DNA of 64,000 nucleotides, counting the filler, from Sanchytrium tribonematis (lineage: Eukaryota): NCBI GenBank assembly GCA_018985235.1. It is 11 parts of 11 records of this genome, joined end to end, with 100 filler letters (N's around TTAATTAATTAA, not from the genome) between each part and the next. Parts side by side here need not be neighbours in the genome. Positions count along the whole stretch, not along the records: positions 28,075 to 32,108 come from JADGIG010000768.1; positions 32,209 to 36,234 come from JADGIG010000769.1; positions 36,335 to 40,333 come from JADGIG010000770.1; positions 40,434 to 44,421 come from JADGIG010000771.1; positions 44,522 to 48,501 come from JADGIG010000772.1; positions 48,602 to 52,577 come from JADGIG010000773.1; positions 52,678 to 56,652 come from JADGIG010000774.1; positions 56,753 to 60,715 come from JADGIG010000775.1; 3 more parts are not named here. One strand, given 5' to 3'. Positions 28,075 through 63,758 of the stretch are shown in pieces. The notes beneath the pieces were generated by a model. That model worked only from the letters and a program-made list of their open reading frames with translations. It was not told where the DNA came from and searched no databases. Position numbers and translations under genes: made by a program. Every line of letters starts with the position of its first letter. Positions within the stretch are counted from its first letter, which is position 1.

Positions 28075-28734
28075 TTAGTGGGCCATTAAATACTATTATA
28101 AATGCAAAAACCGTGTATTTAAGACGTAATTCTCTAAGTGGCACCATTCAATTACAACAGCCTGTTTCTTTAGACATTAAATACAATCAGATTACTGATG
28201 TGACTATTAATGATGACAGCGCATTAACATATTGTATTGTAGACAATAATCTCTTAACACCCTCTTTCATGTTAAAATCATTTGCTTATTTATGTTCTGG
28301 AATATCCAATACAATGGGTATTAGCAGTCCATCTGCCACATCTATTCAGAAATCGAGCACGGATTCGAGCACAGATTCGACCACATTGACACTAAAATCA
28401 ATGAATGATAAAACACAAGAGACACCTATAACTAGATTATTACGTATTTAATACTCATATAGGACCCATAAAATCCACGGTACAACTTACATCCATTTCA
28501 ATTTGGTCAAAATCAGCTTCAAACACGGATAAATGGATTCAAATTCAAACTACTACAAAATTAATTGCAGTAGTTAATATGCCACATGTTCAATTGACAT
28601 GGAATACATCTTGGCAATCTATATTGAGATGTGTCATTAATTTACAATTATTGACAATTTTGAGTGTAAAATACCATTCTAAAGTAAAATCAAGACAAAC
28701 TCACAAGTTGGGTACACTTCTATCAATTTACTAA
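28075..28734 (+). CDS. LRR receptor-like protein, 3' part (last LRR, Cys cap, S/T stalk, TM); 5'-truncated; exons ..28443 and 28463..28734
   Basis: Family C-cap P..L.I..NQI.DV.I.D...LT.C.VDNN.L; after a 19-nt intron the frame runs to a hydrophobic segment and basic tail (ILRCVINLQLLTILSVKYHSKVKSR). Confidence 0.8.
28444..28462 (+). other. 19-nt phase-1 intron (GTATTTAATACTCATATAG) before the TM exon
   Basis: Contains an in-frame TAA; removal opens about 90 further codons. Confidence 0.85.
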
Positions 28735-28867
28735 TAAATGAATATATATGCATTTGTAAATTTATACTTGATTTTCGGATGATCAAAGATCAGTCAAGTG
28801 ATTTATGATGCAATGATCATCACACATGTTACATCATGTGAATCTATCAAATAATCCCCATCTGACA

Positions 28868-29366
28868 ATGTTGTGTCTCATACTTCTCTTTGCAAATACA
28901 ATCCAATTCACAATATCCAATTTAAATTCAAATTTCAAATTCGATATTCAAATCGGCAAATATGATGCATTTTGGACATCCACACATGAGCCATTAGACT
29001 ATCAACACAAGACATATACATTCAACATACGTAATCACCATCAAATCATCATTAAACAGCCATTTCCCATTGGTGATTCAAAATAGTCAGCATGAGATAG
29101 AAATACATGTAGATGGTAAATTATTAAATGATAAATGGATGTATTTTTATAAAATTGGATTTTATGGGGAATGGAACGAGAGTCGATTAGAAATGGGTGC
29201 ATTTATGAATGAATTAGAAAAACATGTGAATATTGGGGATGAATTATGGGTGAGAGTCAATAAATGTGTACCATTTCTAGTAAAAGTGGGAGAAATAAAG
29301 AGAAATGCCATTTATCATGCCATTCATGGTGCTACAAGTAGTCGAATGATGTTTCCAGTAAAATAA
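28868..29366 (+). CDS. Hypothetical secreted protein split over two frames
   Basis: Signal-like MLCLILLFA; ORFs 28826..29086 and 29070..29366 overlap and the junction is unresolved. Confidence 0.35.
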
Positions 29367-29400
29367 ATCAATGAATATACACGACAACCAAATTTACTAA

Positions 29401-32108
29401 TCAATGTGACTGCATTGAATAAATCATTGAATTTGGTTTTTTGGGTCTATTTTTACTCTTTTTCAGTACGTAATTGCCATAAAATAATCCTGCTAAAAGT
29501 AAAACATCCATGGATACTCTCAATCCCATTTGGATTGTTAATTGGACAATGGAAACCACTGGCGCACGAAACACTGTTAAATTGCTGAATACAATATTAG
29601 CAGTGGTTGATTGGCTGGATAATGTGGCATATCTTACTGATTCAAAGGCACTACTGGCTGTAGAAGTAGTAGATGCTTTGTGAAATACCCGTGTGACGAC
29701 TAAATGAGTAAAAATAACTTGATTTGACTAATGTCTCATTTAGAGCAATACTACTATCAATCATGCTACTTGATGATTTCAATTTACTAGATTCTTGAAT
29801 AAATTGACTTTTGGCTGTGGTTTCGACTGTAGTGACTGCAATTTGCAATTTTGAAGATGGCGTTGTCAAATAAAGCTGTTTACACATGGTGTAGTTGGAG
29901 ACATAAGAACTGTTTAATAGAGCATTAAATGATAAATCACAGTCTGTCAACAAAGTCGTATTTTGCACTTGAACTTCATAAATAGACGTATTTCCCAAAA
30001 TTAAATGTGTGGGTTTCTGTAATACAATCATGTCGTTGAAGAAGTTGCCTTCATTGACTGTATTACCCAATACGACATCATTTAAAGAAGCAGGAAATGG
30101 GGGCAATGGACCTGTTAGAAAATTCCCCTGAATTCGCAATTGTTGTAAATTGGGTGGTAAAGTAGGAAGTTTGCCCGTCATATTACATCCAACTAATTGA
30201 AGCACTTTTAATGTGCTAGGCAATTGAGGGATCGTCTGATTTAAATTCAAATTGCTGATTATCAAAACCTCTAATCCTTCAAACAATGTAGGCAATTTGC
30301 CATCAATGTTGGTATAAACTAATGCGATTTCTTTGATATGTGTGGGCATGTTATCTGGAAACCTGGTGCTTTGGTTGTACATTCCAAAAATGTACAATTT
30401 CTCTAAAGATGGAGGAATATCTGACACTGAAAGTGCAAACCCATCCACAGTTTTGGCTTTATCATATCCATTTATGTATAAAGCAGTTACATTTTGCCCT
30501 ACACACTGTATGTATAGATCAAATTCACAGCAATTGGCATCTATTCCTGTTGAAGTGAGAATTCCCATTTTTTGAAACATTCTTAATACATACGAGCAAG
30601 AATTGAGGACAGGAGATACTGTATTCTTTTGAATGTCGTGTTTACAATTTATCAAGTTGGTTAAATTGCCTACTGCAATGTTATTCAGTGAAACATCACA
30701 ATCAGGAATATTAATTTGACTCAAAGTTGAGATTTTGTCAATCAAATTGTTTCTAAAGTTAAACATGCCACTACCAGCTGTCACAAATGTAGACAAATCA
30801 ATAATACCTTTGATATTATTGTTTCTAATATCAATTCCATTTAAAATGCTTCCCTTTAATCCATTTTGCACAGAATCAAAATTGTTGTTGGCTGCCGATA
30901 AAGTCGTTAATTTACTCAAAAGTGGGATTGTTCCAGTCATTTGGTTGTTACTAATGGATAGGGTCACTAAACTGGCCGGTAATTTACCAGAAATAGGCCC
31001 TGTGAGAAGATTATTGGACAAATTCAATTCTGTCAATTTCGTGAATTTGGTAAAACTTGGAACAATGCCTGTGATGCTATTTACATGCAAGCCTAAATAT
31101 GTAATTGTTGCTGGTAAAAGAGCTGTATTGATTGAACCATTGAGCCCTAAACTATTCAAATCCAAATAAGAAATTCTATTTGCTGAACAAGCCATATAAC
31201 CAGAATTGTCACAACAGTTGCTACGACTTGACAAGTAACTGTAGATTCCTGGGTTTGTCAAATGTATATTCAATTGCCTCAAAAATGAAATGAAATTCGG
31301 ACAATCAGTTGAAGCTGGAGATGTTTTGTAAATAAACGAACAGCGAGTAGCAAGTTGTGAGACACCAGGTTGCATTGCCGTGTCAAAATAATCATAATCG
31401 ACATTGCAAGTTGTCAAATTTTCACCATGTGGCAAATACAATCTATCAAAAGTGTTGTAGCTGAGTGACAACGAGGTAATATTTGGAGAAGAAATCGTCA
31501 AATTACCAGAGAATCTATTATATGACAAATCAAGAGTCTTGATAGATTTAAAGTCCATTGGAATGGTACCAATGAAATTGCAAAATGACAAATCTACAAA
31601 TTCCACCTTGGATGGTAAATATCCCAAAACATTGGTTTTCGGAGAATTACACTTGTGAAATGTGACCTGTGTCAAATTTTCCGCTTTAATTGGCAACACA
31701 TTGTCAACGCAATGATTCATTTCAACCACTTCCAGAGAATTTGGTAAAATGGGCACGACTTCCTGGTCATAACAATAATATCGAAACACTGTTAGATTTG
31801 GAAATGTTTTAAATGCCAAAGTAATAGGAAAGGATTGCATTAAATTCAAAACTTTCAATGTGTCTGGTAAAGATTTAATGATCATTGCTTTATAGCTGTT
31901 ATTCAAGTCCAAAACACGTAGTTTTGGAGGTAAATGAATCTCTGGATAAGTTCTTCTATCCGCATCAGCATCTGTAATGAATCCCCAATACAATTCTACT
32001 ACTCTTTCATTCTCACAAACTACTCCAACTCCAAAACAACAATCCAATTCATATTGAATAAAATACTCTGTAAAAGTATATTTAATATCCAAATCTAATT
32101 CCAATTGA
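29401..32108 (-). CDS. Multi-cassette LRR receptor-like protein with TM; 5'-truncated; exons ..29719 and 29699..29401
   Basis: Three Cys-capped LRR modules and an S/T stalk; after a 19-nt intron it reads ...GLRVSMDVLLLAGLFYGNYVLKKSKNRPKK...SH*. Confidence 0.85.
29700..29718 (-). other. 19-nt phase-1 intron (GTTATTTTTACTCATTTAG) before the TM exon
   Basis: Removal bypasses TAG at 29651 and opens the frame to TGA at 29401. Confidence 0.82.
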
Positions 32109-32219
32109 NNNNNNNNNNNNNNNNNNNNNNNNNNNNNNNNNNNNNNNNNNNNTTAATTAATTAANNNNNNNNNNNNNNNNNNNNNNNNNNNNNNNNNNNN
32201 NNNNNNNNTATTATCAAAA

Positions 32220-32531
32220 ATGAAATTGACTGTGAACATGGGCCAAGAAAAGGAGGAATATGAAATATCAAATTATTTGCCAACTGTGCTATATGGAGGT
32301 GTCAATGCCATTATTTTAGACAATGGCAATTTTCAATTGAGTTATAAAGATCAAAAAATTAAATTCAAGTTGGAATTTGTGGCCCAAAGGGGGTTATTTA
32401 AATATTACAAATTGATCGATTCTGTGCGACTAGATTTATATAAGAAATCTACTTCATTAGCGACATACATGATTAGCCATGCAACACATGACTCAAATAC
32501 TAAATTAAAAATAATAAATTTCATATATTGA
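32220..32531 (+). CDS. Hypothetical protein (possibly 5'-truncated)
   Basis: 103-aa ORF at the contig edge. Confidence 0.4.
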   Translation: MKLTVNMGQEKEEYEISNYLPTVLYGGVNAIILDNGNFQLSYKDQKIKFKLEFVAQRGLFKYYKLIDSVRLDLYKKSTSLATYMISHATHDSNTKLKIINFIY

Positions 32532-32618
32532 GTAAATTGATTTTGCAACGAGTTCATTTATTTTAACACGCTTGATTGGTGCAAATCAAATAAATATCCT
32601 TCGTCATCCCCAACATGA

Positions 32619-33086
32619 ATGACATCGTATTTAGAAGAAGGAATCAAATACTATGAGCAAGAGAACTATGAAATGTCAACCTATTATTTCAAATTAGCGA
32701 GTGATTTGCATGATCCATCGGGATTAGTGCTATATGGCGTTGCATTAATCCATGGACAGGGCTGTTTAAAGAAGCCAGCATTGGGGGTAGATTATTTAGA
32801 GCGCGGTATACACTATAGTTTATCACAGCTAAAAGGGAATCCGAAAATCAGTCAGGCAATTCGGGATGAAATTGCATTGAGTTGTTTTGAGTTGGGACAT
32901 TGCTACGAGAATGGCGTGGGATGTCGTAAAAGATCTGTACAAGCTGCTTTATACTATGAAGTGAGTGCCAAGTTGGGAGATTTGAATGCTGTTGAGAAAA
33001 TACAAAAAATGTATGAAAAAGGAATTGGAGTGAAAAAGAATAAGGAAAAGAGTTTATTTTATGAGCATTTATTAAAACAGCAATAG
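32619..33086 (+). CDS. Small Sel1-repeat protein
   Basis: LYGVAL.HG.GC, FELGHCYENGVGC, MYEKGIGVKKNK. Confidence 0.85.
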   Translation: MTSYLEEGIKYYEQENYEMSTYYFKLASDLHDPSGLVLYGVALIHGQGCLKKPALGVDYLERGIHYSLSQLKGNPKISQAIRDEIALSCFELGHCYENGVGCRKRSVQAALYYEVSAKLGDLNAVEKIQKMYEKGIGVKKNKEKSLFYEHLLKQQ

Positions 33087-33092
33087 TAAATA

Positions 33093-33746
33093 TCATATAT
33101 CCTGATTTACCTTTGGTTTCCTTCTATTTTTCTTTTTAATTTGTTTTGATTTGCAACTCAATGGATTTGCTCCTTTAATTTCTCGTCTTTTGGGCATTTT
33201 GCCTTTATATCCCAAATCATTAAATTGGGGATGCTGTACATCATCTATTTGATAATTATCTACCAGATTCTTTTCAAACTCAGTCAATTCTACTCGTTTT
33301 TGACTATCAATTTCAGTTGCATTCTTTTTTGCCAATTTACTAATTTGTTCAATCACTAATGTGCTCTGATTAAAATATAGGAATGGAACGCATTTAGTCT
33401 TACTTAATTCTTTCCTCTTGTCATAATCCTGAATACACAATATCCCATTCAAATTATCAAAACAATTCTCAGAATGTACTTCATTTTTACAATCATACGC
33501 TAAATATTGACGCATTTCTTTCTTAACAGTCTTATCTATATGTAAATGTTTACTACATTTCAATGTGGATATCTTAATAGGTTGCTGAATAGAAGTAGAA
33601 ATCAAATGTTGCAAATCCAATTGATGTTCTAAACAATAAGAAATCACAGAATGATGCAGAAAAACCCTTAATGGTAGTTCTAATTTGAATATAAAGGTGT
33701 AAAACGAGATGATTTTCTTCATTTGTTTTGTTCGAGTTACTTTCAT
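33093..33746 (-). CDS. UTP23: rRNA-processing protein Utp23 (PIN-like)
   Basis: MKVTRTKQMKK..SFY start, C..H..C Zn knuckle, C.QD...RK, VP.LY, KGANPLSCK.K. Confidence 0.85.
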   Translation of the reverse strand: MKVTRTKQMKKIISFYTFIFKLELPLRVFLHHSVISYCLEHQLDLQHLISTSIQQPIKISTLKCSKHLHIDKTVKKEMRQYLAYDCKNEVHSENCFDNLNGILCIQDYDKRKELSKTKCVPFLYFNQSTLVIEQISKLAKKNATEIDSQKRVELTEFEKNLVDNYQIDDVQHPQFNDLGYKGKMPKRREIKGANPLSCKSKQIKKKNRRKPKVNQDI

Positions 33747-33959
33747 TTTTAATGTTTTATCCTCAAAAGGAGTCATTTGGAAACTCGTTTTATTCACAAT
33801 TTAATTAGTCAGGCAATGTTCTACATGTAGATCAAATTTACTACAAAAGTTCAATTTGCCAAATTGATCCCATTGGTCTAATTTGTACTTTGTCGTAAAT
33901 TAGATTGATTCTGATTGGATTTCCAATCATTTTGAATCACTGATGCCCGTATCATTAAA

Positions 33960-35939: not shown

Positions 35940-36334
35940 ATTCAATTGATAATCAAAATCAACGACACAAACATCTGATTGTCAAGAAAGTTTGAATTTT
36001 GAATTAATATCAGACACTGTGACTTGGTAAATATAAATTCTCAGTCCATCTGATTGGCCTGATGAGCTTACAATAGACATAATAGAAATTGCCTCTTTCT
36101 TTTCAAATGATCTTCATTTTTTCCATTTCAGCTGCAACTCAACCCAATCAATCTAATGGTCTATCTATGATTGCCACTTGCATGGTAAGACATGCATCCA
36201 AATGTCATAGTGATAAAGATATGAAACCCGGAGTNNNNNNNNNNNNNNNNNNNNNNNNNNNNNNNNNNNNNNNNNNNNTTAATTAATTAANNNNNNNNNN
36301 NNNNNNNNNNNNNNNNNNNNNNNNNNNNNNNNNN

Positions 36335-38088
36335 GATGATTTAGTGGCAATTGATGTTAACTTGGTAGCTGTTAATCTGGTGAAAATTGCTCTAGTTGGC
36401 ACTACTGGATTATATTCTGTCAAATTGTCATGTTTACAAATTGGCAATAAATTGTCTAAATTGTTACTTTGTGCTAACATATTGAAACTAATGTCACAAC
36501 TAGTTAATGAACTGGTATCTTGGACTATAACATCATGAAATTGATTGTTGGAAATAAGCAGCGTATTTGGATCATTCAACTTTAAAACACCTGAAAATGA
36601 ATTTCGTGAAATTTCAACTCTTTTCAAATTGATTGTTGCAGAAGCATCAATATTTCCAGAAAAATTGTTATCTGTTATAGTCAATTCTTCAAGTGATGCA
36701 GGAAGTTTTGGAATATTCCCACTTAAATGGTTATTATTCAGATACAAAACTTGAATATTTGGAGGGAAAACAATTTGTGATGCATTTCCAAATCGATTGC
36801 TTACAATCGCAACATAAGAAAGCTGAGTACTGCTAAGATCTGGTAAATTATTAAAATTGCCACCACCCATGAAAACAGCTTTCAATGATTTAGGAAATGG
36901 TGGAAAATCACCTGTAAAATAGTTATTGGCATATCTGGCTTCTTCCATATTTTTAGAGAATTTAATTGGCCCCGTTAAATATAAACTCTCTATAGACAAA
37001 TATTTTAGATTGTCAGGTAGATCTGGAAGCTGTCCAGAACATTTTGTATTTATAAGCTCCAGCCATTGCAAATTTAGTGGCAATGTCACATTTTTTAAAT
37101 TTCCAAAGATATTAGTAGTATGGAAATTCGCCTGTATCAACTGAGATGGCCATACAATATCTTCGATATTGCTGTTAATTTGAGTCACATCCACGCCGAA
37201 ATATTGCAATGAATCTGGCATATTTTTAATTTGGCCTTTAATTTGATTGAAGCCCATGTAAAACTCTTTAATACCATTTGGAAGTTGAGGAAGACCATCA
37301 GTAAATCTGTTAAATGAAAAGTCTATAAATTCAATTGCATTGGGAAATGGTAAAGTCAAATTTGTGAATTGGTTCACAGTGACACTGAAAATTTTCATTT
37401 GAGGTGGCAGCAGAGGAATTGTACCTGACAATCGATTATTGCCTAATTGCAATGTTTGCAACGTATTTGGCAATTTACTCAATGTTCCAGAAAGACCAGA
37501 ACCAATGGCAGAAAATGTAACCAAATTATTTGGCAAATTTGTTGGAAATGGCTGAGTAAATGTGTTTCTATCCGCATTGAAATCAGTCAATGCACTAGCT
37601 GAGCTAAAGTCACTAGGAAAACCTGTAAATCTATTGTCAGAAACATCCAAATTTAAAAGATTTGAACCCAACGAGGGAATATTTCCAACAAATTGATTTG
37701 ATCGGAGAAAGCATTCTTGAATTGATTGCGGTAGTTTCTGAATGGTCCCACTAAATTGATTGTTGTTCAAATACATAAATTGGATTGAATCTGGTAAATT
37801 TGTGACATTTCCCGTTAATTTGTTGAAACTTAGATCCAGATTCATTAAACCATTTGGAATATATTCACCCTTGAGAGTGCCATCTAGTCCCAAAGCACTC
37901 CAGTAAATATTTGTCACTGTGTTTGCGAATTGACAAGAAATTCCTGTTAATGAGCTTCCCGCGCAACAATTTGCTTGAATATTTGAAAATTTTGTTGGTT
38001 GTACTTTATCCATGTTCAAACCCAGTGCTAATTGAATAATGTTTTCACAATCTGTTAGTGCGTGTCGCAGACCCATTAAGAGCATCAT
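36335..38088 (-). CDS. LRR receptor-like protein, 3'-truncated
   Basis: Short signal peptide, DC...CC...C N-cap, about 20 LP..L..L.L..N.F.G.IP repeats, C-cap LTSCDISFN...ICKHDNL, T-rich stalk. Confidence 0.9.
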
Positions 38089-38207: not shown

Positions 38208-40226
38208 TTATACAGAGTGCTCGATTCTTTGTTTGACTTTGCGCACAAATGGTGTTTTAACGACCACCATCCCTACTATAAATGCATTGATTGTAAAATG
38301 AAGGGCATAAATCAAAAATGCATCCAATGTGCTTCTGATTAAAATGGATTTTGGAGTGAATTTGTGTTCAAATAGTGTTTCTGTTGACGAATATTCAATC
38401 CTTGAAATAATTTCTTCATAATTCATGCTGTAGCTTGTAATATAAGCCATTTTTGTGTTCATATTGACTATATTTCTAGTTCTTATAACAGGTTTTGTGA
38501 TATTTGGAGCAATTGTACTAATTATCTGTGTATATTCCATTGAAGTGACTGGATAATAAGTTGCCAAATTATCGTGTTTACAGATTGGCAATAAATTGGA
38601 CAAATGAGGTGAATTGGCAAGTAAATTACCACTCAAATCACAGCTGGATAATTTAACAATATCTTGCACCAAAATATCGTTAATTTGATTATTAGAAATA
38701 TCAAGAATCATAGGTTGTTTCAAAAGAATGGTTCCTGAAAATAAATTGCCTCCTGTTTCTAAATCGACTAGAGCATCAGGAAGAGTCAGTGAACCACTAA
38801 ATTGATTGCCAGTCACAATTAGTTTCTGTAATTGAGATGGTATTGAAATAGTGCCATTGAAATGATTATCCAATAAATGAATTTCAATTAATGTGCTTGG
38901 AAGTGCAAGTATTCGACCAAATAATCGACAATGGTCTAAATTAAGCATTGTCAAACTACTTGAAAAGTTGAATAGTTGATATTTACCATAAGAATACCCT
39001 GTATTTAGACTCAGAAAAGCCAATGAATTTGGCAAATTTGGAAATGGACCTGTGAATGCATTGTAGTCATATACAGCACTTTTTTGAGCTGGAGAGAATT
39101 GAATGGGTCCAATTAATCCGAGTGATTGTACATCCAGAACTTGAATCCTTCCCATTGAGCGGGGAAGAGTTCCAAAACAATTTGAATTTGCCAAATATAA
39201 TTCAGTCACAATTAATGGGATATCCCAAGTAGACAAATTCCCACCAATTTGAGTCTTTTGAATACTTACTCTTGCTAAATTTGGTGGCCAATTAATAGCA
39301 GTGATATCTCCCAGAAGTGGATTAAATTCCAAATTTGCAAATACAATTGGATTTGGCCAATTGATGGGGATTTGACCATGAATATTGTTGTTATTTATTG
39401 AAATGGCTGTTACGGTGCTTGGGAGAGGTGGAAATGGGACATTTAATAAGTTATTGTTGCAATCTATTGTCTGAATGCTATTTGGAAATGGGAGTGTCCA
39501 ATTGGTTAGTTTGTTGTAATTTAGGGATAAATAAGTCAGTAGGGGAGGGAGTAATGGTATAGTTCCATTTAATTTGTTAAAACTAATTTCTAAATTGGCT
39601 AATACACCTGTAAAAGTTGGTACATTTCCAGTAATTTGGTTATCTGTCATTTTTAAATGTTGAAGTGAAGTTGGCCAATTTTGGGGCATTGACATTGCAA
39701 TTTGGTTGTTATTCAAAATGAATTCAACTAATTGAGTGCATGATGTGAAATCAATTTGAATTGTGGCTAATTGGTTGTAAGACATTGAAAATCTAATGAT
39801 TTGAGAATTTAAATTTGGTAAAGTGCCTGAAATTTGATTGTGGTCTGCATAAAAGAGTGACAATGAGTTGGGGAATCTATCTATTGTTTCACTGAGTAGA
39901 TTGTTGGATAAATAGATATTCTGTAGGGTATTTGGAAGTCCGGAAATGGAGCCAGTAATTTGGTTGTTTGAAATGTCCAAAGTGACCAGATTGGGTGGCA
40001 ATTTAGACCCGTCAAATACACCAGTGAGTCCCAAACCACCCCATTGGATAGATGTAATGGTATTGGATGAGCAAACAACACCAGAAACAGTACCAGTGCA
40101 GCAATTTGATTGGATTTGATTGTAAATGGCAGATTGAGCTTGCTGTAATCCGATAGATGTAGCAAAATCAAGTAGTTTAGTACAATCTTGTATTACTGCA
40201 AATGACTGAATCGCAACAACAAACAT
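38208..40226 (-). CDS. LRR receptor-like protein with in-frame C-terminal TM (no stalk intron seen)
   Basis: Same architecture as its tandem neighbour; ends ...FTINAFIVGMVVVKTPFVRKVKQR. Confidence 0.9.
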   Translation of the reverse strand: MFVVAIQSFAVIQDCTKLLDFATSIGLQQAQSAIYNQIQSNCCTGTVSGVVCSSNTITSIQWGGLGLTGVFDGSKLPPNLVTLDISNNQITGSISGLPNTLQNIYLSNNLLSETIDRFPNSLSLFYADHNQISGTLPNLNSQIIRFSMSYNQLATIQIDFTSCTQLVEFILNNNQIAMSMPQNWPTSLQHLKMTDNQITGNVPTFTGVLANLEISFNKLNGTIPLLPPLLTYLSLNYNKLTNWTLPFPNSIQTIDCNNNLLNVPFPPLPSTVTAISINNNNIHGQIPINWPNPIVFANLEFNPLLGDITAINWPPNLARVSIQKTQIGGNLSTWDIPLIVTELYLANSNCFGTLPRSMGRIQVLDVQSLGLIGPIQFSPAQKSAVYDYNAFTGPFPNLPNSLAFLSLNTGYSYGKYQLFNFSSSLTMLNLDHCRLFGRILALPSTLIEIHLLDNHFNGTISIPSQLQKLIVTGNQFSGSLTLPDALVDLETGGNLFSGTILLKQPMILDISNNQINDILVQDIVKLSSCDLSGNLLANSPHLSNLLPICKHDNLATYYPVTSMEYTQIISTIAPNITKPVIRTRNIVNMNTKMAYITSYSMNYEEIISRIEYSSTETLFEHKFTPKSILIRSTLDAFLIYALHFTINAFIVGMVVVKTPFVRKVKQRIEHSV

Positions 40227-46645: not shown

Positions 46646-48176
46646 ATGAAATTTATTTTTCAAATTCTATTTCTCATTTTACATGCATCAGATTGTCAAA
46701 CGACTCTAGATTTCTTCATGTATTTAAATATGCATATCACAGATCCTGTTGAATTCAATTTAATTCCCCAAAATTGCTGTGATTATCAAAGTAATAGCAT
46801 TTATACGCCATATGACACACCCTATCATGATATAGTAATCAATTGCACAGCTACACAAGTCACTACAATACAAGTAATCAATTTAAATATTAACGGGTTT
46901 ATTAATTCAACCAGTTTACCCAAAAATATTAAAAATTTGATTATTTCTTCAAATCTTCAATTGACTACTTTGGTACCAAATGATTTGCCAGATTCATTAG
47001 ATTATCTTGATTTAGGTGGTAATAGTTTATATGGACCCATTCCGACTACATTACCAGTTAATTTGACTCAATTATCATTTAGTAACAATCATTTGACTGG
47101 AAATATCCCTAAAATGCCACCAAATTTAATCAAATTGTATTTGGACTATAATGATTTAAGTGGGGATATTCCAAATGATTTACCAAGTGGTTTACAGTAT
47201 TTATTGGTGTATTATAATCAATTTACGGGATCAATCAATCATTTGCCAGATACTTTAAAACAAGTAATACTGGATGTGAATTTATTCAATGGTACCCTTG
47301 ATCGCATCACCCGTCATGTTTACTATTTCTCCGTTAGTTATAATCTCTTGTCTGGTGAAATTACAGCTGATTTACCTGATAAATTAGACTTCTTGTCGTT
47401 GGATTATAATTTATTGACAGGGGTATTTCCACAGTCATTCTTGCAAGTGCCTAGTTTATATATCAATGACAATCCATTTACTGGTTGTTTTGATGTTGTG
47501 GTAGGGTGTACAACATGTTATATGTTTAGAAATCAATTTCGAGGTCCTATTGTCTTTCAAAAACCAATTAGTTTGGCTATTTTTGGCAATTTGATTACAA
47601 ATGTGACTATTATTGATAATTCTACATTAACTGATTGTGAATTAGATAATAATCCATTGTTAAATGCAGTTGGATTAGATCAATTACCATCCATTTGCAC
47701 AAAAACTAAGTTATTTGCGAATACAGGGTATATTTGTGCAAATAACCAAAGCAGCATTGTAAATAGTACTGTAAAAAGCATTTCACAAAGTCAGACAAGT
47801 GGGATTATTGCAGAATCTACAATTAAAAGTGTGACACCACATGAAATCACCATTGTGACACGTTCATTTGACTCATATAGGTCCTGTATTTGTTGCTAAA
47901 TCGACATCATTTGTAGAATATACAATTGATTTCTCATTAGAACCAGAAACAGAGTCATTTTCTTTAAGTTCAAGCAGTGTTTCAATGATTTTTGAAAAAT
48001 GGAGAGCCAACATATCCCCAATTGAATTAACTATTAGCATACCAGTGTTTGCTAGAATATTTATCAGTTTGGGATTAATTGTTTATGTGCTCACTGATAC
48101 TTTCACCTTGAAAAGGAGAAAAACAAAAGTATCTAAAAGTACTATGAACAAATCACTTGATATTTCAATAAATTGA
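46646..48176 (+). CDS. LRR receptor-like protein (signal-LRR-stalk-TM); exons 46646..47861 and 47881..48176
   Basis: Signal peptide, HASDC..CC..C cap, LRRs, C-cap, S/T stalk; TM PVFARIFISLGLIVYVL followed by KRRKTK. Confidence 0.9.
47862..47880 (+). other. 19-nt phase-1 intron (GTTCATTTGACTCATATAG) before the TM exon
   Basis: Removal gives ...IVTR|PVFVAKSTS, joining ORFs 46646..47899 and 47868..48176. Confidence 0.85.
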
Positions 48177-48234: not shown

Positions 48235-48501
48235 ATGTTTTCATTCATCTTGTTTTTCATTTTACATGCTACAGATTGTAGTTTAACCATGACATTCTTC
48301 AAATCATTAAAGATGCATATCACAGATCCATCAGAATTCAATAAAATACCCCAAAGTTGTTGTAATTACCAAAGTACCAGCACATTTACCCCATATTTGA
48401 CACCACTCAGTAAAGTAGGTATTTTTTGTACTTCTGGTGCTGTCACTGCCATTCAAGTGATTAATTTAAATATTAATGGGGTGTTTAATGTATCTAGTAT
48501 C
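48235..48501 (+). CDS. LRR receptor-like protein, tandem paralog, 3'-truncated
   Basis: N-terminus is very similar to the 46646 gene (LHA.DC, MHITDP.EFN.IPQ.CC.YQS, IQVINLNING). Confidence 0.9.
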
Positions 48502-49982: not shown

Positions 49983-51292
49983 CCGTAGTATGCCAAATAG
50001 TTCGTACTAACCAAATAATTCGTAGTTCCAAATAATTCGGATTTTTGGTCCAAAATTGTCAATAATTCGCAGTAACCAAATAATTTGAAGTGGATGTAAG
50101 AGAAAAAAATAAATAATTTTTATGACAACTCCATTTCCTGTCGATGTTGTTAATCCATCAAGTAGAGGCGTTTATCACACTTATGATCTTAAAAACAAAA
50201 TTAAATTTTTAGATGAATATCATCTTGTAGGGAAAAACACGGCATTGTCACGTAAGAATTTCAATTTGACACATGTACCATTTAATACAATTGATTACTG
50301 GATCAAAACAGAAACTCAAATTCGTAACACTGCCAATTCATATACAAGGCGAAATGGTACAAGAAATAGGAAGAGATGTGCCGGTGGTGGTAGAAAACTC
50401 GTTTTAAAAGAAGGTGAATATGACATTTACAATCAAATAATTGAGATGCGAGATCAGAAAGTTCGTGTTACTCGCAAAATGGTATCTAGATTTGCTCTTT
50501 CATACGCGGAAAAAAATAACATTACTGGATTTAAAGCCACTTCAAAATGGCTGATTTTATTTTTTAAGATTCAATTTGTCATTAAGAAGATATTCCACAA
50601 TACAAACATTAGATGATGATGAAATAGTTAGAAGAAGTTTTGTGTATTTTAGATATTTGAAGCACACTTTCTTGAATGAGTTTGACACTTTGAAATTTCA
50701 AAATGTGATTGGCATGGATGAGACAGCTATTTATTTTACAAGTAGTCATACTTGTACTGTTGATGTGAAGGGAAAATCTAGTAATGTGGTAAAAGCAACA
50801 GGATTTGATTCGGACAGAATCACTTGCATTTTAGCCATCAAATCAGATGGTACTTTCTGTAAGCCAATGTTAATCTACAAGGGTGAGGAAAATGGTGTAC
50901 TGGAAAAATTCAATAATGTTTAAAATTACATTTCAAGAATTAATTGATAATGCCCCCATTAAAGAGATTGTTAAAACAGCAAAGCAGCTTGACAATGATG
51001 TAAATTCGCATTTCAATGTGCAAACAAAGCATACGACATTGTTAATGAGGCCAATGCAGATGATATTTCAGATTTTATTTGTGCATTTTGTGCAGCCGAA
51101 ATGATAAATTTGCAAGTGCATGTTTGTAAAGGCTGCAAATTACAGGTATATGGTCAGTCAATTGGTCGTTTAAAAGCAGACGGAATTTGTAGAAAGTGCG
51201 AATTTGAATAAATATTTGTGATGCCAAATTATTCGGATTTTTTCTCTCGAAATGTTAGTAATTCGCACTTCGAACTATTTGGCATACTACGG
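49983..51292 (+). mobile_element. pogo/Tigger-like (Tc1-mariner) DNA transposon, defective; 22-bp perfect TIRs, TA target duplication
   Basis: TA-CCGTAGTATGCCAAATAGTTCG (49983-50004) and CGAACTATTTGGCATACTACGG-TA (51271-51292); subterminal CCAAATAATTCG repeats. Confidence 0.92.
50122..51211 (+). pseudogene. pogo-type transposase (CENP-B HTH + partial DDE), frameshifted and internally deleted
   Basis: GGGRK, F.A...WL..F, then a frameshift near 50560 to LSLRR...Q, MDET.IYF, RIT..LA...DG...KPM.IYKG; the later catalytic D residues are absent. Confidence 0.88.
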
Positions 51293-51621: not shown

Positions 51622-52577
51622 TCATGACATTCTGCCATCTTTCTCATCATTTGATTTCCATGGTATTACTTTTCTATAATTAACTCTTTGTAATAATCCA
51701 TGTTTGTTGATGGTGACAGTGTTATTTGTATGGCATTCTACAATTTTATAAGGACCTTCCTGTTGAGTATCCCATACAGATGTCATGTTTCTGTCTTCTT
51801 TACGCAATAAAATAAGATCGTTAATTTTAAATTGATGATTAATGCGTTTCTTATTGGTAAATTTTAAATCTCTTATAACAGATTGTGTAGGAGATTCAAA
51901 ATTCGTTTGTTGTTATTAAATTGAGGTAGAACCATGTCAAGTCCAAATATCATCTCTGATGGACTTTGATTGAGAGAAAAATGAATTGATGCTCTCAAAG
52001 CAAATGCGATTGGTTGTAAATTAATAAGCCATTTTTCTACTCCAATTGTACGAATCATTTGATTAATTGTTTGATGTACTCGTTCACAGACAGAATTTGC
52101 CGTGGCCATATAAGCTGTTGTTGTTGCTGTTTTAATTCCGTAAGCTTTTGTTAATTCCATCATTTCTTTACCAATTAATTCTTTTCCTTGGTCACTTACT
52201 AGTACTCTGGGACGAGGATAGCGACTAAACCACCCATCGTCAAGAGTATCACATATTGTAGACGCCGTATGATCCGAAAGAGGTATGAGCTCAATACATC
52301 TCGACTTTATATCGCAAATACTCAAAATAAAACGATATTCCACGCCATGCCTATCAGTGACTGTTGGTAATTTTCCTTGTATATCAATTGCAATTATTTC
52401 AAACGGTTGAATGTTATCATGGATTGTTGTTGGCCTTTAATTTGCCATATTGTTTACTATTTAATTTAGATGTTTTACATATTAAATAGTTATTGCAATA
52501 TCTTTTGGCATCTTTATAGAGTGTATCCCAAAATAATTTATGCTTCAAAATAGCAATAAATTTAGATTGTCCTGGAC
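51622..52577 (-). mobile_element. Ty3/gypsy LTR-retrotransposon integrase relic (frameshifted, cut by contig end)
   Basis: PFEIIAID, D..SR, SDQGKEL, ANS.CERVHQTI, W...L....FA.R, SP.EMIFG and GPY motif, in several frames. Confidence 0.9.
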
Positions 52578-55621: not shown

Positions 55622-55638
55622 ATTTTATTTTTCAAAAC

Positions 55639-56481: not shown

Positions 56482-57311
56482 TCTTCAGAGAAATGAAATT
56501 TAATATTTTGCGCGCATCTGGTACAGACCATCAGCATCACAAGATGGACAATACAAATGTTTAAAAGCCACTTAATAAATATATTTGATTGGTCGACAAA
56601 AGCCACGTGCCGACGTCTTTTCTATATAAACAGAAGCGCGTCCCGTTTCGGGNNNNNNNNNNNNNNNNNNNNNNNNNNNNNNNNNNNNNNNNNNNNTTAA
56701 TTAATTAANNNNNNNNNNNNNNNNNNNNNNNNNNNNNNNNNNNNNNNNNNNNGTCATGATAGCGAGGTTTGTGGTTAAAACTCTTTGCCTGATTGAGTTG
56801 ATTTGATCGTCTCATATTTTGAGATTTACCATGGTGATGATTGATTGGGTGATCCATATGATTTAAAGGTGAGTGCAAGTTTGCCATATAAAATTGCAAA
56901 TCCCATTGTTTATATACTAAAATATTAATCTTGCACCAATCAAACGAGTCGCGAAGGATACAAAGCGGATAATCTGTGTGGTACTGGTAAATTGGTAAAA
57001 AGTCACCGGGTGATGAGAATTATATTCCCAAAGGAAAGTCAATGCGACAAACAATTTTGGAAACTCCATTAAATGACTAATGGCGGCAAAATACGGATAT
57101 ATTTCATCGCTTATGAGTATTAGGCGATTATTCACATATAAAGTTTAATTTGAGTCGATTCTTAAGTGGATTATCAAGACAACGGAATTATTTCAATGAT
57201 ACAGGAACTATTGGCTACTGCAAACTATTTATCTTATTAAAACTAATTTAAATAGTTTGATAACGGAATATTTGTTTCAATTTATTGGAATTTTCCGAGA
57301 ATCCATGAAAC

Positions 57312-58544: not shown

Positions 58545-58719
58545 TTGATAAAGTAAAATAAATTTAAATTTGGAAATTTGATAATTTGATTACTGATAAC
58601 TGATGATTTATTCATATATTTTTGCCTTGGTAACCCGTTTTCATTTACTATATAATTTGTACATATATAAAAATTATTTTTGACGTCAAGTTGTACCTTT
58701 TGAATCAATCAGAACAAAA

Positions 58720-59610
58720 TTATCGGCGACATGCAATATTAAGGATTGGGTTCAAGTCATTATTCTCCAACATAAAATATCCAATGGTACCCAAATACGA
58801 ATGCATTGGATCTGGAAAGTCTTCAGCAGTTTTCCCAAAACCACCCATTGCACTTTGAGATTGGATTAAGAAATCTTTCAATTTTTGAATGTTAAGAAAT
58901 TCAAGACTTTTCAACATTTTCAAGGAAGCACCTACCCAAAATGAATAACAGGTATCACTTGGCTTATTCAATCTTCCATTGATTCCGCCATCTTTTTGTT
59001 GTCTCAAAATTAGCCACTTTTTTAATTTCCATTCATTTCTTGGATTTTCATTCAAGATCAATAATGATCCAATTGCACAGTAAGTGTAACCAGCGTGTGG
59101 TTCCATGTCATTCATGCTGTATCCACCTGTTAGATCCTGACAGTCATGTACAAATTTAAGGGTAAATGTCTTGATCGAGTTTAAATATTTATCTACTTGA
59201 TCAACTATGTTGTCATTCATCATTTTAAGTATTTCTAGACTAGCTAAGCAAGTGTATATAAATCTTAAGTCGTAATTTTGATCGTAGTTGTTAAATTTTC
59301 CGTAATTTAATTTAATATCAATTAGAATTCTATTGGCAGTATCATTATTAATATTCCATTTGTAATGGTATGCCATTGTGATATAGGCATAAATTCCACT
59401 GGTACTAGTAGTTTGTATCCATGGATGTGGAGATGAGGAATATTTTACAACTTCTTTTGGCAAAATGGATTCATCCTCTGATAATATAAACAATAAATTA
59501 TAAATGAATTGAACAATAGTGCTATAACTGTGAATACTTCTTTGATAAGCATTTGGCATCAATTGCAGGTGTTTTTGGCAATATTTTACAGTTTTTGCAG
59601 TTTCTAACAT
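58720..59610 (-). CDS. Protein prenyltransferase beta subunit (GGTase-I-like)
   Basis: DLRFIY, EPHAGYTYCA, RQ..DGG.NGR.NKPSDTCYSFWVGA, GGFGK....PDP.HSYLG. Confidence 0.92.
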   Translation of the reverse strand: MLETAKTVKYCQKHLQLMPNAYQRSIHSYSTIVQFIYNLLFILSEDESILPKEVVKYSSSPHPWIQTTSTSGIYAYITMAYHYKWNINNDTANRILIDIKLNYGKFNNYDQNYDLRFIYTCLASLEILKMMNDNIVDQVDKYLNSIKTFTLKFVHDCQDLTGGYSMNDMEPHAGYTYCAIGSLLILNENPRNEWKLKKWLILRQQKDGGINGRLNKPSDTCYSFWVGASLKMLKSLEFLNIQKLKDFLIQSQSAMGGFGKTAEDFPDPMHSYLGTIGYFMLENNDLNPILNIACRR

Positions 59611-59632
59611 GTTTCAAAAATATTGAAATAAT

Positions 59633-60715
59633 TTATTCGTCTTGTAAGTTTTGGTCCTTAATCCATTGAATAATCTGATGTGCATGATCATTGACCCACT
59701 TCAATTTCGCATTAGCATGTTCTAATCCTTCTTCTGCTGCCTTGTTTGCTAATGGTGGATTTGTAATATTTTTAAATCGACAATCTTTGTTGATAAACAT
59801 AGATTCAGCATCCAAAATCATAGATGGGCTAACCATAAATGATGTTATTGTTGTAATGAATCTATTAATTCCAGAAAACATACCGCCATTAAATTTATGA
59901 GACAATTTCTCATAATTATCTCTAAACCAAGTCCATGCAATCAAAGGACCCATTGGCGCGATAGAAGCTACCAAACTCATTAACCTAACGGCATCCTGAT
60001 TTCTAACATCATCACTAATACTCAAATCTAAAGTACGAACACTTAAATGGCCCTGTAAAGAAGAGGCCAAGGCAACCAACAATCTTTGTTTTTCTTGAGC
60101 AAATACACTCTTTTTGTATAATTCTAATACTTTGTAGTATTCTGGCTCATATCCATACATCACTGCTGCTTTTTGAGCAATTCCCATCAAATCAACACTC
60201 ACATCCGCATTTGCATTAAAAATCTCAAATGCTTGATCAATCACTAGCTTATCACCAACGCGAATAGCAGCATTTAATATCATATTCTGAAGTAATTTTT
60301 GAGCATGTTCGGTTTGCGTATTGTGCCAATTAAAATCTTTGCTGATATCTTTTAATAAATATCTCATGTAATATTTCAATTCGCTATAAAATGGTGAAAT
60401 TCGTAAAGCACCTTCAATCTCAGCAAATCGATTCAAAGCAGTAGACCAAACAATGTAATCTCTTTCATTCTTTAAAAATTTAGTTAATGCGAATAATCTC
60501 TCTGGGTGATCTGTTTGTCCCGTTAAAACAATAGCTAAAGCATCTTCTAAGAAACCCGCTCTGTCCATTGCACTCATGACATTTAAATCTTCTTCAAACC
60601 AGTCTTTTGCAACTTCGTACCACTCAAATGGCAATCCTACTCTATAAAATCCAGTTTGATCCACATTGCCTTTAATAATCCAATTTCCCTTGGCTTCTGG
60701 AATATGCACTTTAGT
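59633..60715 (-). CDS. M1 aminopeptidase, C-terminal ERAP1-like domain; 5'-truncated
   Basis: W.K.N..QTGFYRV, DRAG.L.DA, E.DY.VW, VRNQD, AW.WF..NY. Confidence 0.9.
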   Translation of the reverse strand, partial: TKVHIPEAKGNWIIKGNVDQTGFYRVGLPFEWYEVAKDWFEEDLNVMSAMDRAGFLEDALAIVLTGQTDHPERLFALTKFLKNERDYIVWSTALNRFAEIEGALRISPFYSELKYYMRYLLKDISKDFNWHNTQTEHAQKLLQNMILNAAIRVGDKLVIDQAFEIFNANADVSVDLMGIAQKAAVMYGYEPEYYKVLELYKKSVFAQEKQRLLVALASSLQGHLSVRTLDLSISDDVRNQDAVRLMSLVASIAPMGPLIAWTWFRDNYEKLSHKFNGGMFSGINRFITTITSFMVSPSMILDAESMFINKDCRFKNITNPPLANKAAEEGLEHANAKLKWVNDHAHQIIQWIKDQNLQDE

Positions 60716-60815
60716 NNNNNNNNNNNNNNNNNNNNNNNNNNNNNNNNNNNNNNNNNNNNTTAATTAATTAANNNNNNNNNNNNNNNNNNNNNNNNNNNNN
60801 NNNNNNNNNNNNNNN

Positions 60816-61369
60816 ACATGTAATTTGAACGGGATTTACACGGCTAGTGAAAGCACCTGTAGAATACTGACAATTGAAGAAATACTACATCCGATTGTAG
60901 CACCAACCACTGCTCTCACGACTGCAGCAAGCACCATAGGGGTGATGGCAAGTTCTGTTGAATCCATGGGCACGTTTTCTGAAGAAACAGTAGATTTGCC
61001 ATCAATGACAAAAGAGCTGACAATATTTCCATACTCATCCGATGTGGAAGACACCGAGGGTGATAACAAATTTAGTCGTACCACTCATTTAACGTAGGCA
61101 TTACTCGAACTTTTAAATCCTTTACTGAATTCAAGTCCATATTGATTTTCAACTCTACTTCCAAAGTACAATCCAATTCTACAGCCACAACTGTTATACA
61201 ACAGTATGTATGGACTGTCCAATCATTAAAGCTGTTTTGGTCTCCCATTATTACTTTAAAATTATGTTTTAGCACTTTGTTGATTGGGATGGTTTTGAGC
61301 AGAACGCCCTTCAAGAGTAATTTGAAAAGTAAGAAAAGACAAGAAATTACAATCCATCGGGCTTTTTAG
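60816..61369 (+). CDS. LRR receptor-like protein, 3' end (stalk + TM); exons ..61077 and 61098..61369
   Basis: Shares 136 bp with the downstream LRR gene; after a 20-nt intron it reads to TM ITLKLCFSTLLIGMVL and RTPFK..KSKKR. Confidence 0.82.
61078..61097 (+). other. 20-nt phase-1 intron (GTACCACTCATTTAACGTAG) before the TM exon
   Basis: The acceptor TAG is the in-frame stop; removal joins ORFs 60825..61097 and 61142..61369. Confidence 0.85.
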
Positions 61370-61438
61370 TTTGTACGAAATAAATTTGGTTAAAATGACT
61401 TTGAATTTGAAACTAGTAGGCCGAAAATATTCATTAGT

Positions 61439-63758
61439 ATGAATCTGAATGTAAAATCCATTTTAATACTTCATTTCACTACATTTACCCATATATTTGG
61501 TATATCCACAGATTGCCCAATCATTCTAGACTTTTTAAGAGGTTTAAATCTTCATTTAACAGATCCAATGATATTCCAAGGCATTCCGGGTTGGAATAGC
61601 GAAGTGCCCGCTGATTGCTGCAATTTGGCACTTCATACTGCATATGGCAATCTTGATATATCATGTACTGGCACTGGATCAAGTCAGCATGTCGCGTATT
61701 TACAGTTGGGAAATGTAAATATTAATGGGACCATTCAAAGTCAGTATATTTTACCCTACTTATTACAACTAGCTATTTACTCTACACCATTAAGTGCACC
61801 TATCCCCAGTGACTTGCCAAATACATTAAAATATTTGTATCTCCAAAATAATAAGATAAGCGGGGCAGTTCCAGAAACTCTACCCAGTCAATTGACCGAA
61901 TTACAAGTTAATGGGAATCAATTGTCGGTTTTACCGACTTCATTTCCTGTTGGTGTGACTCTATTAGCATTATATGATAACAAATTCACAAAAATGCCCG
62001 TTTTACCTCCCAATTTAATCACATTATATATTTACAATAATTTTATTTCTGACAGATTGCCGAATTCATATCCAAATACGCTGCAATGGATAGGTGCTCA
62101 AAATAATATGATTTATGGGACGATCCCGAATAACATAGCAAATACAGTCTATTATTTATATCTGGGTAATAATCAACTGCAAGGTGCGATTCCTGATATT
62201 CTACCAACTCAATTGAGATATTTTCAAGTTTCTAATAACCAATTGACCAATTGGCCAGCTTCCTTCCCTTCTGCTTTACTCTATTTGTATGTAGATGGCA
62301 ACAAATTTATAACATGGCCTAATTTACCACCGAATTTGTATGCTTTGTTTATCTTTCAGAATCTAATATATGATAAATTACCAAATTCACTCCCCAGTAC
62401 GTTGTCTTATATCGATGCATCTCATAATTTGCTATATGGCTCTATTCCAGTCCTGCCACCCGCGATTAATTACCTTGATTTGGGATATAATAATTTGGTT
62501 GGTGGGTTTCCGATTGTTCCAAACACTTTGGCATTTTTGGGATTAAATTTTAATTTATTTACAGGAAATTTGCCCAATCCATGGCCTACAGGACTAGGGG
62601 GCTTAAATATTAACCATAATTACTTTAATGGAAGTATTACGAATATCACGAAATCTGGATGGGATTTGTCGTGGAATTTGTTATCCGGAGGATTACCTAG
62701 TATTAATGTCTCACAAGGCAAATTTCCAAAACCCGTCACAGTAGAACTATCTCACAATCAATTATCTGGTGATATTGACTTGGGATATTCTACAATTAAT
62801 GATTTAAGACTAAGTTTCAACAAATTCGACAAATTTCCAAAATCATTGCCAAAATCAATCAATACACTTAAATTGGACAATAATGGAATGCCGGGCAATA
62901 TTTCTTATGATCTGCCAACTACACTCATCACCATTGACTTGTCAAACAACAATTTGACTGGCAATATCCCAAATGGCTCTAATTTCTATTTCAATGATAA
63001 TTATTTGGGTGGCAATTTGTCATTTCTAGCACCCTCTCAGCTATATTTACAGAATAACAGATTGAATGACGTGTTGATTAGCAATGCAACAGGGTTATCA
63101 AATTGTAGTTTGGCCAATAACCCAATGGCACCAGGAGTGTTTGGTAAAACATTTCAAAATCAATGCAATTTGAATGGGATTTACACGACTAGTGAAAGCA
63201 CCTGTAGAATATTGACAACTGAAGAAATACTACATCCAATTCTAGCACCAACCACTGCTCTCACGACTGCAGCAAGTACCATAGGGGTGATGGCAAGTTT
63301 GACAGCAGAATTATCAGCATCAACCCAGTCTCAAATACAATATTCCCACACTGATTCTTCCTCAATTATTACTGAAGTTACACGTACCTCAAGATTCCAT
63401 CTGGAAATCACCCCACAAATGAACTCACAAACTGTCGAAGAATTAGATAATCAATCAAATGCGATAGAATCTACTGTTAATCGTATCATCAATTCATTTA
63501 GGTCGAATTATAAAATTCACTTCAGCAACGAGTATTTTTGTAAACTCAACAATAGCGAGTTTTAAACAGGTACATGAATCCACAAAAATAGCTCCTATTG
63601 CTACAACGAAATGGGAATTCAAGTCTTACCAATTGAATGTATCGTTGATTGCTTTGTTCAAATTATGCTTTAACTTTTGCTTAATTGTTTTTATCATCAA
63701 GAGTATTGTAAAGAAAAACAAGAAACCACTCATTAAATATCAAATGAATGGATTTTAA
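61439..63758 (+). CDS. LRR receptor-like protein (signal-LRR-stalk-TM); exons 61439..63482 and 63502..63758
   Basis: Signal peptide, STDCP..CC..C cap, about 20 LRRs, S/T stalk; second exon ...LIALFKLCFNFCLIVFIIKSIVKKNKK...GF*. Confidence 0.9.
63483..63501 (+). other. 19-nt phase-1 intron (GTATCATCAATTCATTTAG) before the TM exon
   Basis: Removal bypasses TAA at 63563 and opens the frame to TAA at 63756. Confidence 0.85.

What the first reader, a model, noticed from the sequence alone, without database searches (positions are those of the whole stretch)
28075..63758. Conserved micro-intron just before the membrane anchor of LRR receptor genes: candidate secreted/membrane isoform switch
Seen: five of the six LRR genes whose 3' end is visible have one frame break, always in the S/T stalk upstream of the TM helix. 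Each break is repaired by a 19-20-nt GT..AG intron (28444-62, 29700-18 minus, 47862-80, 61078-97, 63483-501). All are phase 1 and four split a CGN Arg codon. All carry A(C/T)TCAT where three of the four housekeeping introns have YTAAY, and two have weak GTT donors. No other frame-breaking intron occurs in up to 2.4 kb of upstream LRR sequence, and the flanking stalks are not alignable, yet position and phase persist. Because 19 and 20 are not multiples of 3, retention always stops translation before the TM, leaving signal peptide + LRR + stalk. Inference: regulated or leaky intron retention could make soluble and membrane-bound forms from each gene, loosely analogous to secreted versus membrane immune receptors. 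This could serve host recognition or decoy roles. The simpler alternative is an inherited, constitutively spliced ancestral intron.
Basis: partly seen in the sequence, partly recalled or inferred. Interest (0 to 1): 0.88.

Follow-up and report, generated by a model that had tools for sequence, protein, structure and literature searches.

The report
Inherited micro-intron in fungal LRR receptors
A family of predicted surface receptors in an alga-parasitic fungus carries one 19-20-base intron just before the predicted membrane anchor; it is likely an inherited intron of the kind found in the fungus's ordinary genes, and whether failure to remove it yields useful secreted receptors is untested.

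Summary
The five introns are real: right coordinates, 19-20 nt, phase 1, and removal restores stalk plus anchor. Deep source-run contigs span four of them without an indel. The window is unlinked contigs from a fungus whose nearest named LRR homologs are Sanchytrium tribonematis proteins. Family-wide, 22 of 29 genes with a visible stalk carry the intron at one homologous site (±3 codons), about 50 residues before the anchor. Seven lack it but keep the anchor; two are nested among intron-bearing genes, which points to clean loss. One metagenomic relative has a 19-nt phase-1 stalk intron, and 19 other members from other organisms have none. The special features fade: all four housekeeping introns are also 19-20 nt; all nine share GT[AT]…YTNAY.YAG; one LRR intron has a canonical TTAAC branch; retained tails are unconserved (2-49 aa). 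A modest point for leakiness: canonical branch in 3 of 20 LRR against 3 of 4 housekeeping introns. Best reading: one ancestral intron multiplied by duplication, spliced by default, possibly leaky; a selected isoform switch is unshown. New here: 19-20-nt introns in this phylum, and a conserved T-R-x-[IVF] motif at the intron site, kept in intronless genes.

The parts
28077..28734 (+). LRR gene g1, 3' part (cut by contig start): last LRRs, Cys cap, S/T stalk, exon 2 with weak predicted anchor
28444..28462 (+). 19-nt phase-1 intron, GTA donor, CTCAT branch, splits Arg codon
29401..32108 (-). LRR gene g2 (three-module ectodomain, 5' end cut by contig end), stalk, exon 2 with predicted anchor
29700..29718 (-). 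19-nt phase-1 intron, GTT donor, CTCAT branch, splits an Ile codon 3 codons upstream of the Arg of the TR motif
36335..38088 (-). LRR gene g3a, stalk cut by contig end; intron state unknown
38208..40226 (-). LRR gene g3b (P0121), intronless, with TR motif and predicted anchor
46646..48176 (+). LRR gene g4, complete: predicted signal peptide, N-cap, LRR solenoid, Cys cap, disordered stalk, exon 2 with predicted anchor
47862..47880 (+). 19-nt phase-1 intron, GTT donor, CTCAT branch, splits Arg of the T-R-P-V motif
48235..48501 (+). 5' end of a further LRR paralog, tandem to g4, cut by contig end
60816..61369 (+). LRR gene g5, 3' part: cap end, stalk, exon 2 with predicted anchor
61078..61097 (+). 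20-nt phase-1 intron, GTA donor, canonical TTAAC branch
61439..63758 (+). LRR gene g6, complete; its unspliced read-through is database protein P0001
63483..63501 (+). 19-nt phase-1 intron, GTA donor, TTCAT branch
1005..1023 (+). control: 19-nt phase-0 intron in PP2A scaffold subunit gene, TTAAC branch
6675..6693 (+). control: 19-nt phase-1 intron in a long ORF without a Pfam hit, CTAAT branch
15774..15792 (+). control: 19-nt phase-0 intron in Chs7, TTTAT branch; removal restores gap-free alignment to 3 intronless orthologs
25031..25050 (+). control: 20-nt phase-0 intron in Bro1/ALIX, CTAAT branch; Pfam V-domain runs 72-167 then 168-293 across it

Best explanation
These genes carry one 19-20-nt phase-1 intron at a homologous stalk site, likely inherited from a founder of the LRR family and likely spliced by default like the housekeeping introns, giving predicted membrane-anchored receptor-like proteins. 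Shown: the introns, their shared signals (GT[AT], YTNAY with branch A at -6, YAG), the constant second exon (T-R-x-[IVF], about 50 S/T-rich residues, hydrophobic segment, basic tail), and intronless paralogs. Inferred: spread by gene duplication, and precise loss in several paralogs, probably through spliced cDNA. Some passive retention is likely, as in other parasites with tiny introns, and would give anchor-less proteins or decaying mRNA as a by-product rather than as a controlled switch.
For: Family count (window plus the EukProt NODE series): 22 of 29 genes with a visible stalk carry the intron. 5 are read from DNA and 17 from the read-through residues of unspliced ORFs. All 14 anchor-less stalk-ending EukProt ORFs fit the predicted read-through pattern; the strict R..R form of the pattern gave 0 hits and the loose form 2 hits in 1,485 control positions. 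Seven genes are intronless with an anchor. Intron state needs 4-6 changes on two trees against about 11 for shuffled labels; P0130 lies in a starred clade with three intron-bearing genes and P0007 among intron-bearing genes. Exon 2 is 85-99 aa in the window, and 86-103 aa follow the TR motif in intronless genes. All 4 housekeeping introns are 19-20 nt with the same signals. GTA donors: 19 of 22 LRR, 4 of 4 housekeeping. The base before the branch A varies freely among paralogs (C, T or A/G), even within the g2 subfamily (g2 CTCAT; P0349 reads as a stop at that codon). Retained tails run 2-49 aa with no shared sequence. The 21 exon-2 variants examined from the source-run listings (lists were cut) add no stop, and no indel is listed inside the exon-2 coding stretches.
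Against: Canonical YTAAY/YTGAY branch in only 3 of 20 readable LRR introns against 3 of 4 housekeeping (Fisher p=0.035; tiny control, related introns). A 19-nt phase-1 stalk intron also sits in a family member of another organism (L004 1257-1275), so the site may be old and kept, in a genome with only about 0.1 intron per kb (4 in 40 kb). Published tiny-intron parasites splice poorly (E. cuniculi 81% of junctions under 50%; Mikrocytos 63% and 37%), so anchor-less transcripts could be abundant enough to matter. 17 of the 22 introns are inferred from protein read-through, not seen as DNA.
Confidence: 0.62

Rival explanations
1. Selected leaky or regulated retention: the intron is kept at this site with a weakened branch point because a share of unspliced mRNA yields secreted signal peptide + LRR + stalk proteins that act as decoys or soluble host-binding factors.
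For: Position fixed upstream of the anchor in 22 of 29 genes and in one other organism (L004). Non-canonical branch in 17 of 20. It is the only frame-breaking intron found in these genes, and the early stop lies only 193-283 nt before the normal one in the window genes, so decay may be weak (inference). Three EukProt ORFs end before the stalk (P0013, P0014, P0074) and could be natural anchor-less forms or broken genes.
Against: A fixed position follows from common descent. Every intron found here breaks the frame. Seven paralogs and 19 members from other organisms have an anchor and no intron. Tails are unconserved. L004 and g5 have canonical branches. In Paramecium, stop-generating introns have weaker signals and higher intrinsic retention without this being functional (PMC5663052, passages).
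Confidence: 0.2
2. Soluble ectodomains come from protease shedding at the conserved T-R-x-[IVF] motif; the intron merely sits in that motif's Arg codon. Retention, where it happens, would end the native sequence at almost the same place.
For: All 7 intronless genes of the S. tribonematis series and window keep TRx[IVF] 49-56 aa before the anchor (0.16 expected from shuffled stalks). They include deeply diverged members, where no splice constraint acts. The motif resembles the R-x-hydrophobic-x site of SKI-1/S1P subtilases (recalled, from no call).
Against: Only 2 of 19 anchored members from other organisms have it at that distance (0.35 expected). Common descent could explain part of the conservation. 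No protease was identified, and a paper search on S1P motifs in chytrids returned nothing. This reading can coexist with the best explanation.
Confidence: 0.15
3. The frame breaks are assembly indels or pseudogene lesions, and the GT..AG fits are chance.
For: Fragmented assembly of a repeat-rich family. L003 shows a real 1-nt frameshift in an LRR with no plausible intron.
Against: Deep contigs span four breaks without a gap. The same signature appears in 17 paralogs. The same intron type is validated in Chs7 and Bro1. Exon 2 stays open in the variant copies.
Confidence: 0.03

Closest known systems
Ultra-short spliceosomal introns of chlorarachniophyte nucleomorphs (18-21 nt), Mikrocytos (16-17 nt), heterotrich ciliates (15-16 nt), myxobolids (median 22 nt) and microsporidia
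   Same: Narrow length class, GT..AG, conserved internal signal, reduced parasite genome (PMC10245619 and PMC13644364, passages).
   Different: Here a non-microsporidian fungus with 19-20-nt introns, a clear YTNAY branch at -6 and very low density (about 0.1 per kb in the window). Not found described for sanchytrids in the two held papers that mention both words.
Plant LRR receptor-like proteins (Cf-9/TMM type) and LRR-RLK ectodomains
   Same: Signal peptide, Cys-capped LRR solenoid, juxtamembrane stretch, single anchor, short tail, no kinase. Best fold matches are plant LRR ectodomains and PGIP.
   Different: Only about 20% identity and TMq up to 0.56. Short 21-22-aa repeats, own N- and C-caps, long S/T stalk, and a moderately hydrophobic anchor ending in K-T-P-[FW]. 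A separate fungal family.
Secreted versus membrane IgM and soluble receptor isoforms by intron retention or intronic polyadenylation (recalled, from no call)
   Same: An intron upstream of the anchor exon, whose retention would drop the anchor.
   Different: Those systems have a conserved secretory tail and a regulated intronic poly(A) site. A 19-nt intron has room for neither, and the tails here are unconserved.
Lamprey variable lymphocyte receptors (recalled; one search returned no paper describing them directly)
   Same: LRR solenoid with caps, Thr-rich stalk, anchor; both soluble and bound forms exist.
   Different: GPI anchor and somatic assembly there; nothing here suggests either.

Membership tests
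U2-type ultra-short spliceosomal intron | GT..AG ends with a branch motif at fixed distance | tested here: met
   9 of 9 window introns fit GT[AT]..YTNAY.YAG with A at -6; L004 too
U2-type ultra-short spliceosomal intron | removal restores a conserved reading frame | tested here: met
   Chs7 against 3 intronless orthologs; Bro1 Pfam continuity; LRR exon 2 aligns with intronless paralogs
U2-type ultra-short spliceosomal intron | spliced junction seen in RNA | not testable with these tools
   see Tried and rejected
Regulated secreted/membrane isoform switch | retention removes the anchor and keeps the ectodomain | tested here: met
   translation of retained forms stops 2-27 aa after the donor in the 5 window genes
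Regulated secreted/membrane isoform switch | conserved isoform-specific C-terminal tail | tested here: not met
   tails 2-49 aa, no shared sequence beyond the intron's own letters
Regulated secreted/membrane isoform switch | splice signals distinct from constitutive introns | tested here: inconclusive
   donor no different (19/22 vs 4/4); canonical branch 3/20 vs 3/4, p=0.035, non-independent
Regulated secreted/membrane isoform switch | both mRNAs and both proteins present, ratio changes with condition | not testable with these tools
   needs RNA and proteomics
LRR receptor-like protein architecture | capped LRR solenoid ectodomain | tested here: met
   Pfam LRR_1; model pLDDT 83.7, stalk disordered; fold matches
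LRR receptor-like protein architecture | single transmembrane helix and short tail | tested here: inconclusive
   17-residue hydropathy 1.5-2.6 followed by basic residues; no dedicated TM or GPI predictor was run
Plant LRR-RLP family proper | sequence homology beyond generic LRR (LRRNT_2 cap, 24-aa repeats) | tested here: not met
   no LRRNT_2 hit for g4 or g6; plant hits about 25-30% over LRRs only

The most novel reading that the evidence does not exclude
An alga-parasitic fungus keeps a weak-branch 19-nt intron inside a conserved stalk motif, so that dozens of LRR surface receptors each also release a soluble ectodomain, by leaky splicing or by shedding at the same site: a minimal one-intron secreted/membrane switch applied across a host-recognition family.
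Probability: 0.2. Interest if true: 0.8.

Novelty: new variant of a known kind. Interest (0 to 1): 0.47.

Why it matters
Even on the conservative reading, two things are useful. First, this fungal lineage has 19-20-nt spliceosomal introns, close to the shortest known classes, and I found no description of them in the held papers. Second, the public S. tribonematis proteome was made by reading ORFs off contigs (PMC8371127 methods passage), so 17 paralogs seen here are recorded without their anchor and would be mistaken for secreted proteins. The LRR family is a candidate host-recognition repertoire of an algal parasite. If retention proved regulated, it would be the smallest known switch between bound and secreted receptors; one RNA-seq experiment decides it.

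Tried and rejected
No whole genome is held, so no genome-wide intron scan and no search for UPF1-3 or spliceosome genes. No RNA holder listed. No earlier findings by place, words or sequence. The ESM Atlas look-up did not complete. A metagenome scan with a broad alignment had no usable pattern; a narrower one gave 4 loci. Full-length profile searches were swamped by plant and other LRR proteins, so the family count is a sample, not a census. Dropped before the 22-of-29 count: P0013, P0014, P0074 (end before the stalk), g3a and the gene at 48235 (cut by contig ends). Dropped from the other-organism count: P0018, P0274, P0245, P0377 (end without an anchor; P0274 fits a 19-nt intron with TAA branch; no DNA to check), P0236 and P0372 (end inside LRR modules), P0351 (different C-terminus), P0254 (unrelated kinase). 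Candidate introns at 10694, 16046, 35460, 15093 and 38936 were set aside because they lie inside open, apparently intact ORFs. A CTCAT-specific signal was rejected. AATAAA-like hexamers lie near or after the normal stops in 4 of 5 genes; the scan gave nothing at the introns. Supplements of PMC8371127 were not opened and may bear on the claim that these introns and this family are undescribed. Work on aphelid LRR receptor expansions is recalled only; it was not among the 20 papers listed.
Full report
What the window is. The 64 kb are 11 pieces joined by N44-linker-N44 spacers, so the LRR genes with visible 3' ends lie on four unlinked pieces. GC is 33.7%. Genes are dense and include Chs7, the chitin synthase export chaperone, which marks a fungus. 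The closest LRR homologs are EukProt ORFs. Of the EukProt family members looked up, 12 are named Sanchytrium tribonematis and 1 Amoeboradix gromovi, and a Chs7 ortholog at 77% is also A. gromovi. The organism is therefore most likely Sanchytrium or a close relative (inference). No whole genome was available.

Observation. All five introns are at the stated places, GT..AG, 19/19/19/20/19 nt, phase 1, four in an Arg codon. Removal gives stalk, a hydrophobic segment and a basic tail. Contigs of the one run that holds this DNA, possibly its source and so not independent, cross four of the introns with no gap at depth 84-137. Of the exon-2 variants listed there, 21 of 21 examined add no stop (the lists were cut). 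Artefact is very unlikely.

Controls in the window. Four housekeeping introns were found in about 40 kb of coding sequence in 35 genes. Two are validated by homology. Spliced Chs7 aligns without a gap to three intronless orthologs, and the ALIX V-domain profile runs 72-167 then 168-293 across the Bro1 intron. All four are 19-20 nt. All nine window introns fit GT[AT]..YTNAY.YAG with the branch A six bases from the end. So frame-breaking length is the rule for introns found here, not an LRR trait. The g5 intron has canonical TTAAC at the branch position, which breaks the claimed CTCAT signature.

Family-wide test. The EukProt sanchytrid proteins were made with TransDecoder on genomic contigs (PMC8371127, methods passage and section 6 read), and P0001 is the unspliced read-through of g6. 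An unspliced phase-1 19-nt intron must read as [RSCG]-x5-[RS], and a 20-nt one ending in TAG as [RSCG]-x5-stop. All 14 anchor-less, stalk-ending EukProt ORFs show such a pattern. The strict R..R form had 0 and the loose form 2 hits in 1,485 control stalk positions. Three more came from the representative search. With the window's five, 22 of 29 genes with a visible stalk carry the intron, and 7 are intronless with an anchor. Three ORFs that end before the stalk and two genes cut by contig ends were left out. The read-through residues also report the signals: GTA donor in 19 of 22, and the base before the branch A is non-canonical in 17 of 20 readable cases (2 ambiguous), against 1 of 4 housekeeping (p=0.035; related introns, tiny control). 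Retained tails are 2-49 aa and unconserved.

One homologous site. The distance from the LRR cap to the intron varies widely, but the second exon does not: 85-99 aa in the window, with the anchor starting about 50 aa in for four genes. A T-R-x-[IVF] motif aligns at the site. The intron lies in its Arg in most genes and 3 codons upstream in g2 and g5. Two trees, on the C-cap and on the N-terminal part, need 4-6 changes of state against about 11 for shuffled labels, and 0 of 200 bootstrap trees allow a single change (short alignments, many open forks, midpoint root). P0130 sits in a starred clade with three intron-bearing genes and P0007 among intron-bearing genes, which points to precise loss. 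Independent placement at the housekeeping intron rate is negligible (a post hoc figure); descent explains position and phase.

Other organisms. A metagenome scan returned 4 loci with 5 family genes. L004 has a 19-nt phase-1 intron in the stalk with a canonical TTAAC branch, about 70 aa before the anchor; homology to the window's intron is likely but cannot be aligned. In all, 19 anchored members from other organisms are intronless, and four end without an anchor and cannot be judged without DNA. The intron is thus optional for the family.

An extra finding. All 7 intronless genes of the S. tribonematis series and window keep TRx[IVF] 49-56 aa before the anchor (0.16 expected), as do 2 of 19 elsewhere (0.35 expected). 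A motif kept without its intron suggests a protein-level constraint. It resembles a subtilase (SKI-1/S1P-type) cleavage site; that label is recalled and untested, and one search found no paper on it.

Protein. The g4 ectodomain models as a capped LRR solenoid with a disordered stalk (pLDDT 83.7). Its best fold matches are plant receptor ectodomains at about 20% identity. The anchor is only moderately hydrophobic (1.5-2.6), and no TM predictor was run.

Mechanism and odds. Most likely (0.62): one inherited intron, spliced by default, with passive leak. Tiny introns of reduced parasites are often poorly spliced (E. cuniculi, abstract; Mikrocytos, passages; microsporidia median about 25%, passage). 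In Paramecium most retention is judged error, and stop-generating introns have weaker signals (passages). Selected retention, 0.2. Shedding at the motif, 0.15 and not exclusive. Artefact, 0.03.

Novelty. Searches for 'sanchytrid' with 'intron' returned two papers, each with the word only in a reference title. Searches on tiny introns and on soluble LRR isoforms by retention showed nothing on this lineage in their listings. The library lacks most subscription journals, and supplements were not opened. The intron class and the receptor family look undescribed; the switch is a fair, cheap-to-test hypothesis, not a result.

Noticed in passing
window 1005-1023, 6675-6693, 15774-15792, 25031-25050: All housekeeping introns found are 19-20 nt with branch A at -6, very short for a fungus; not found described for this phylum.
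   Followed up: partly
window 15774-15792: The Chs7 intron is absent from three orthologs at 74-80% identity, including A. gromovi: a recent gain here or three losses.
   Followed up: partly
EukProt proteins P0001-P0012, P0025, P0109, P0138, P0142, P0317, P0335, P0349: Database proteins are unspliced read-throughs lacking the anchor, so intron-bearing genes of this proteome are mis-annotated at their C-termini.
   Followed up: yes
window 38208-40226 and paralogs: Conserved T-R-x-[IVF] stalk motif and a K-T-P-[FW] motif closing the predicted anchor across the family.
   Followed up: partly
window 29401-32108 (-): g2 has three tandem capped LRR modules; P0123 and P0236 from other organisms are also multi-module.
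   Followed up: no
window 60816-60950 and about 63150-63330: g5 and g6 share a near-identical stretch from cap end into the stalk, then diverge: recent tandem duplication or conversion.
   Followed up: no
window 50113-50923 (+) and 51873-52436 (-); L004 3-827: Tc5-type transposase fragments and a retroelement integrase (rve) in the window; an integrase-like ORF lies beside the L004 LRR gene. A possible source of reverse transcriptase for intron loss.
   Followed up: no
window 28075-32108 and 60816-64000: Many variants at about half depth in the laid contigs: two haplotypes or near-identical paralogs.
   Followed up: partly
L003 about 845: One-base frameshift inside the LRR region, not an intron.
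   Followed up: yes
P0351 (ENA): A 1,495-aa family member whose C-terminal part has further hydrophobic segments and a long charged tail, unlike the other members.
   Followed up: no
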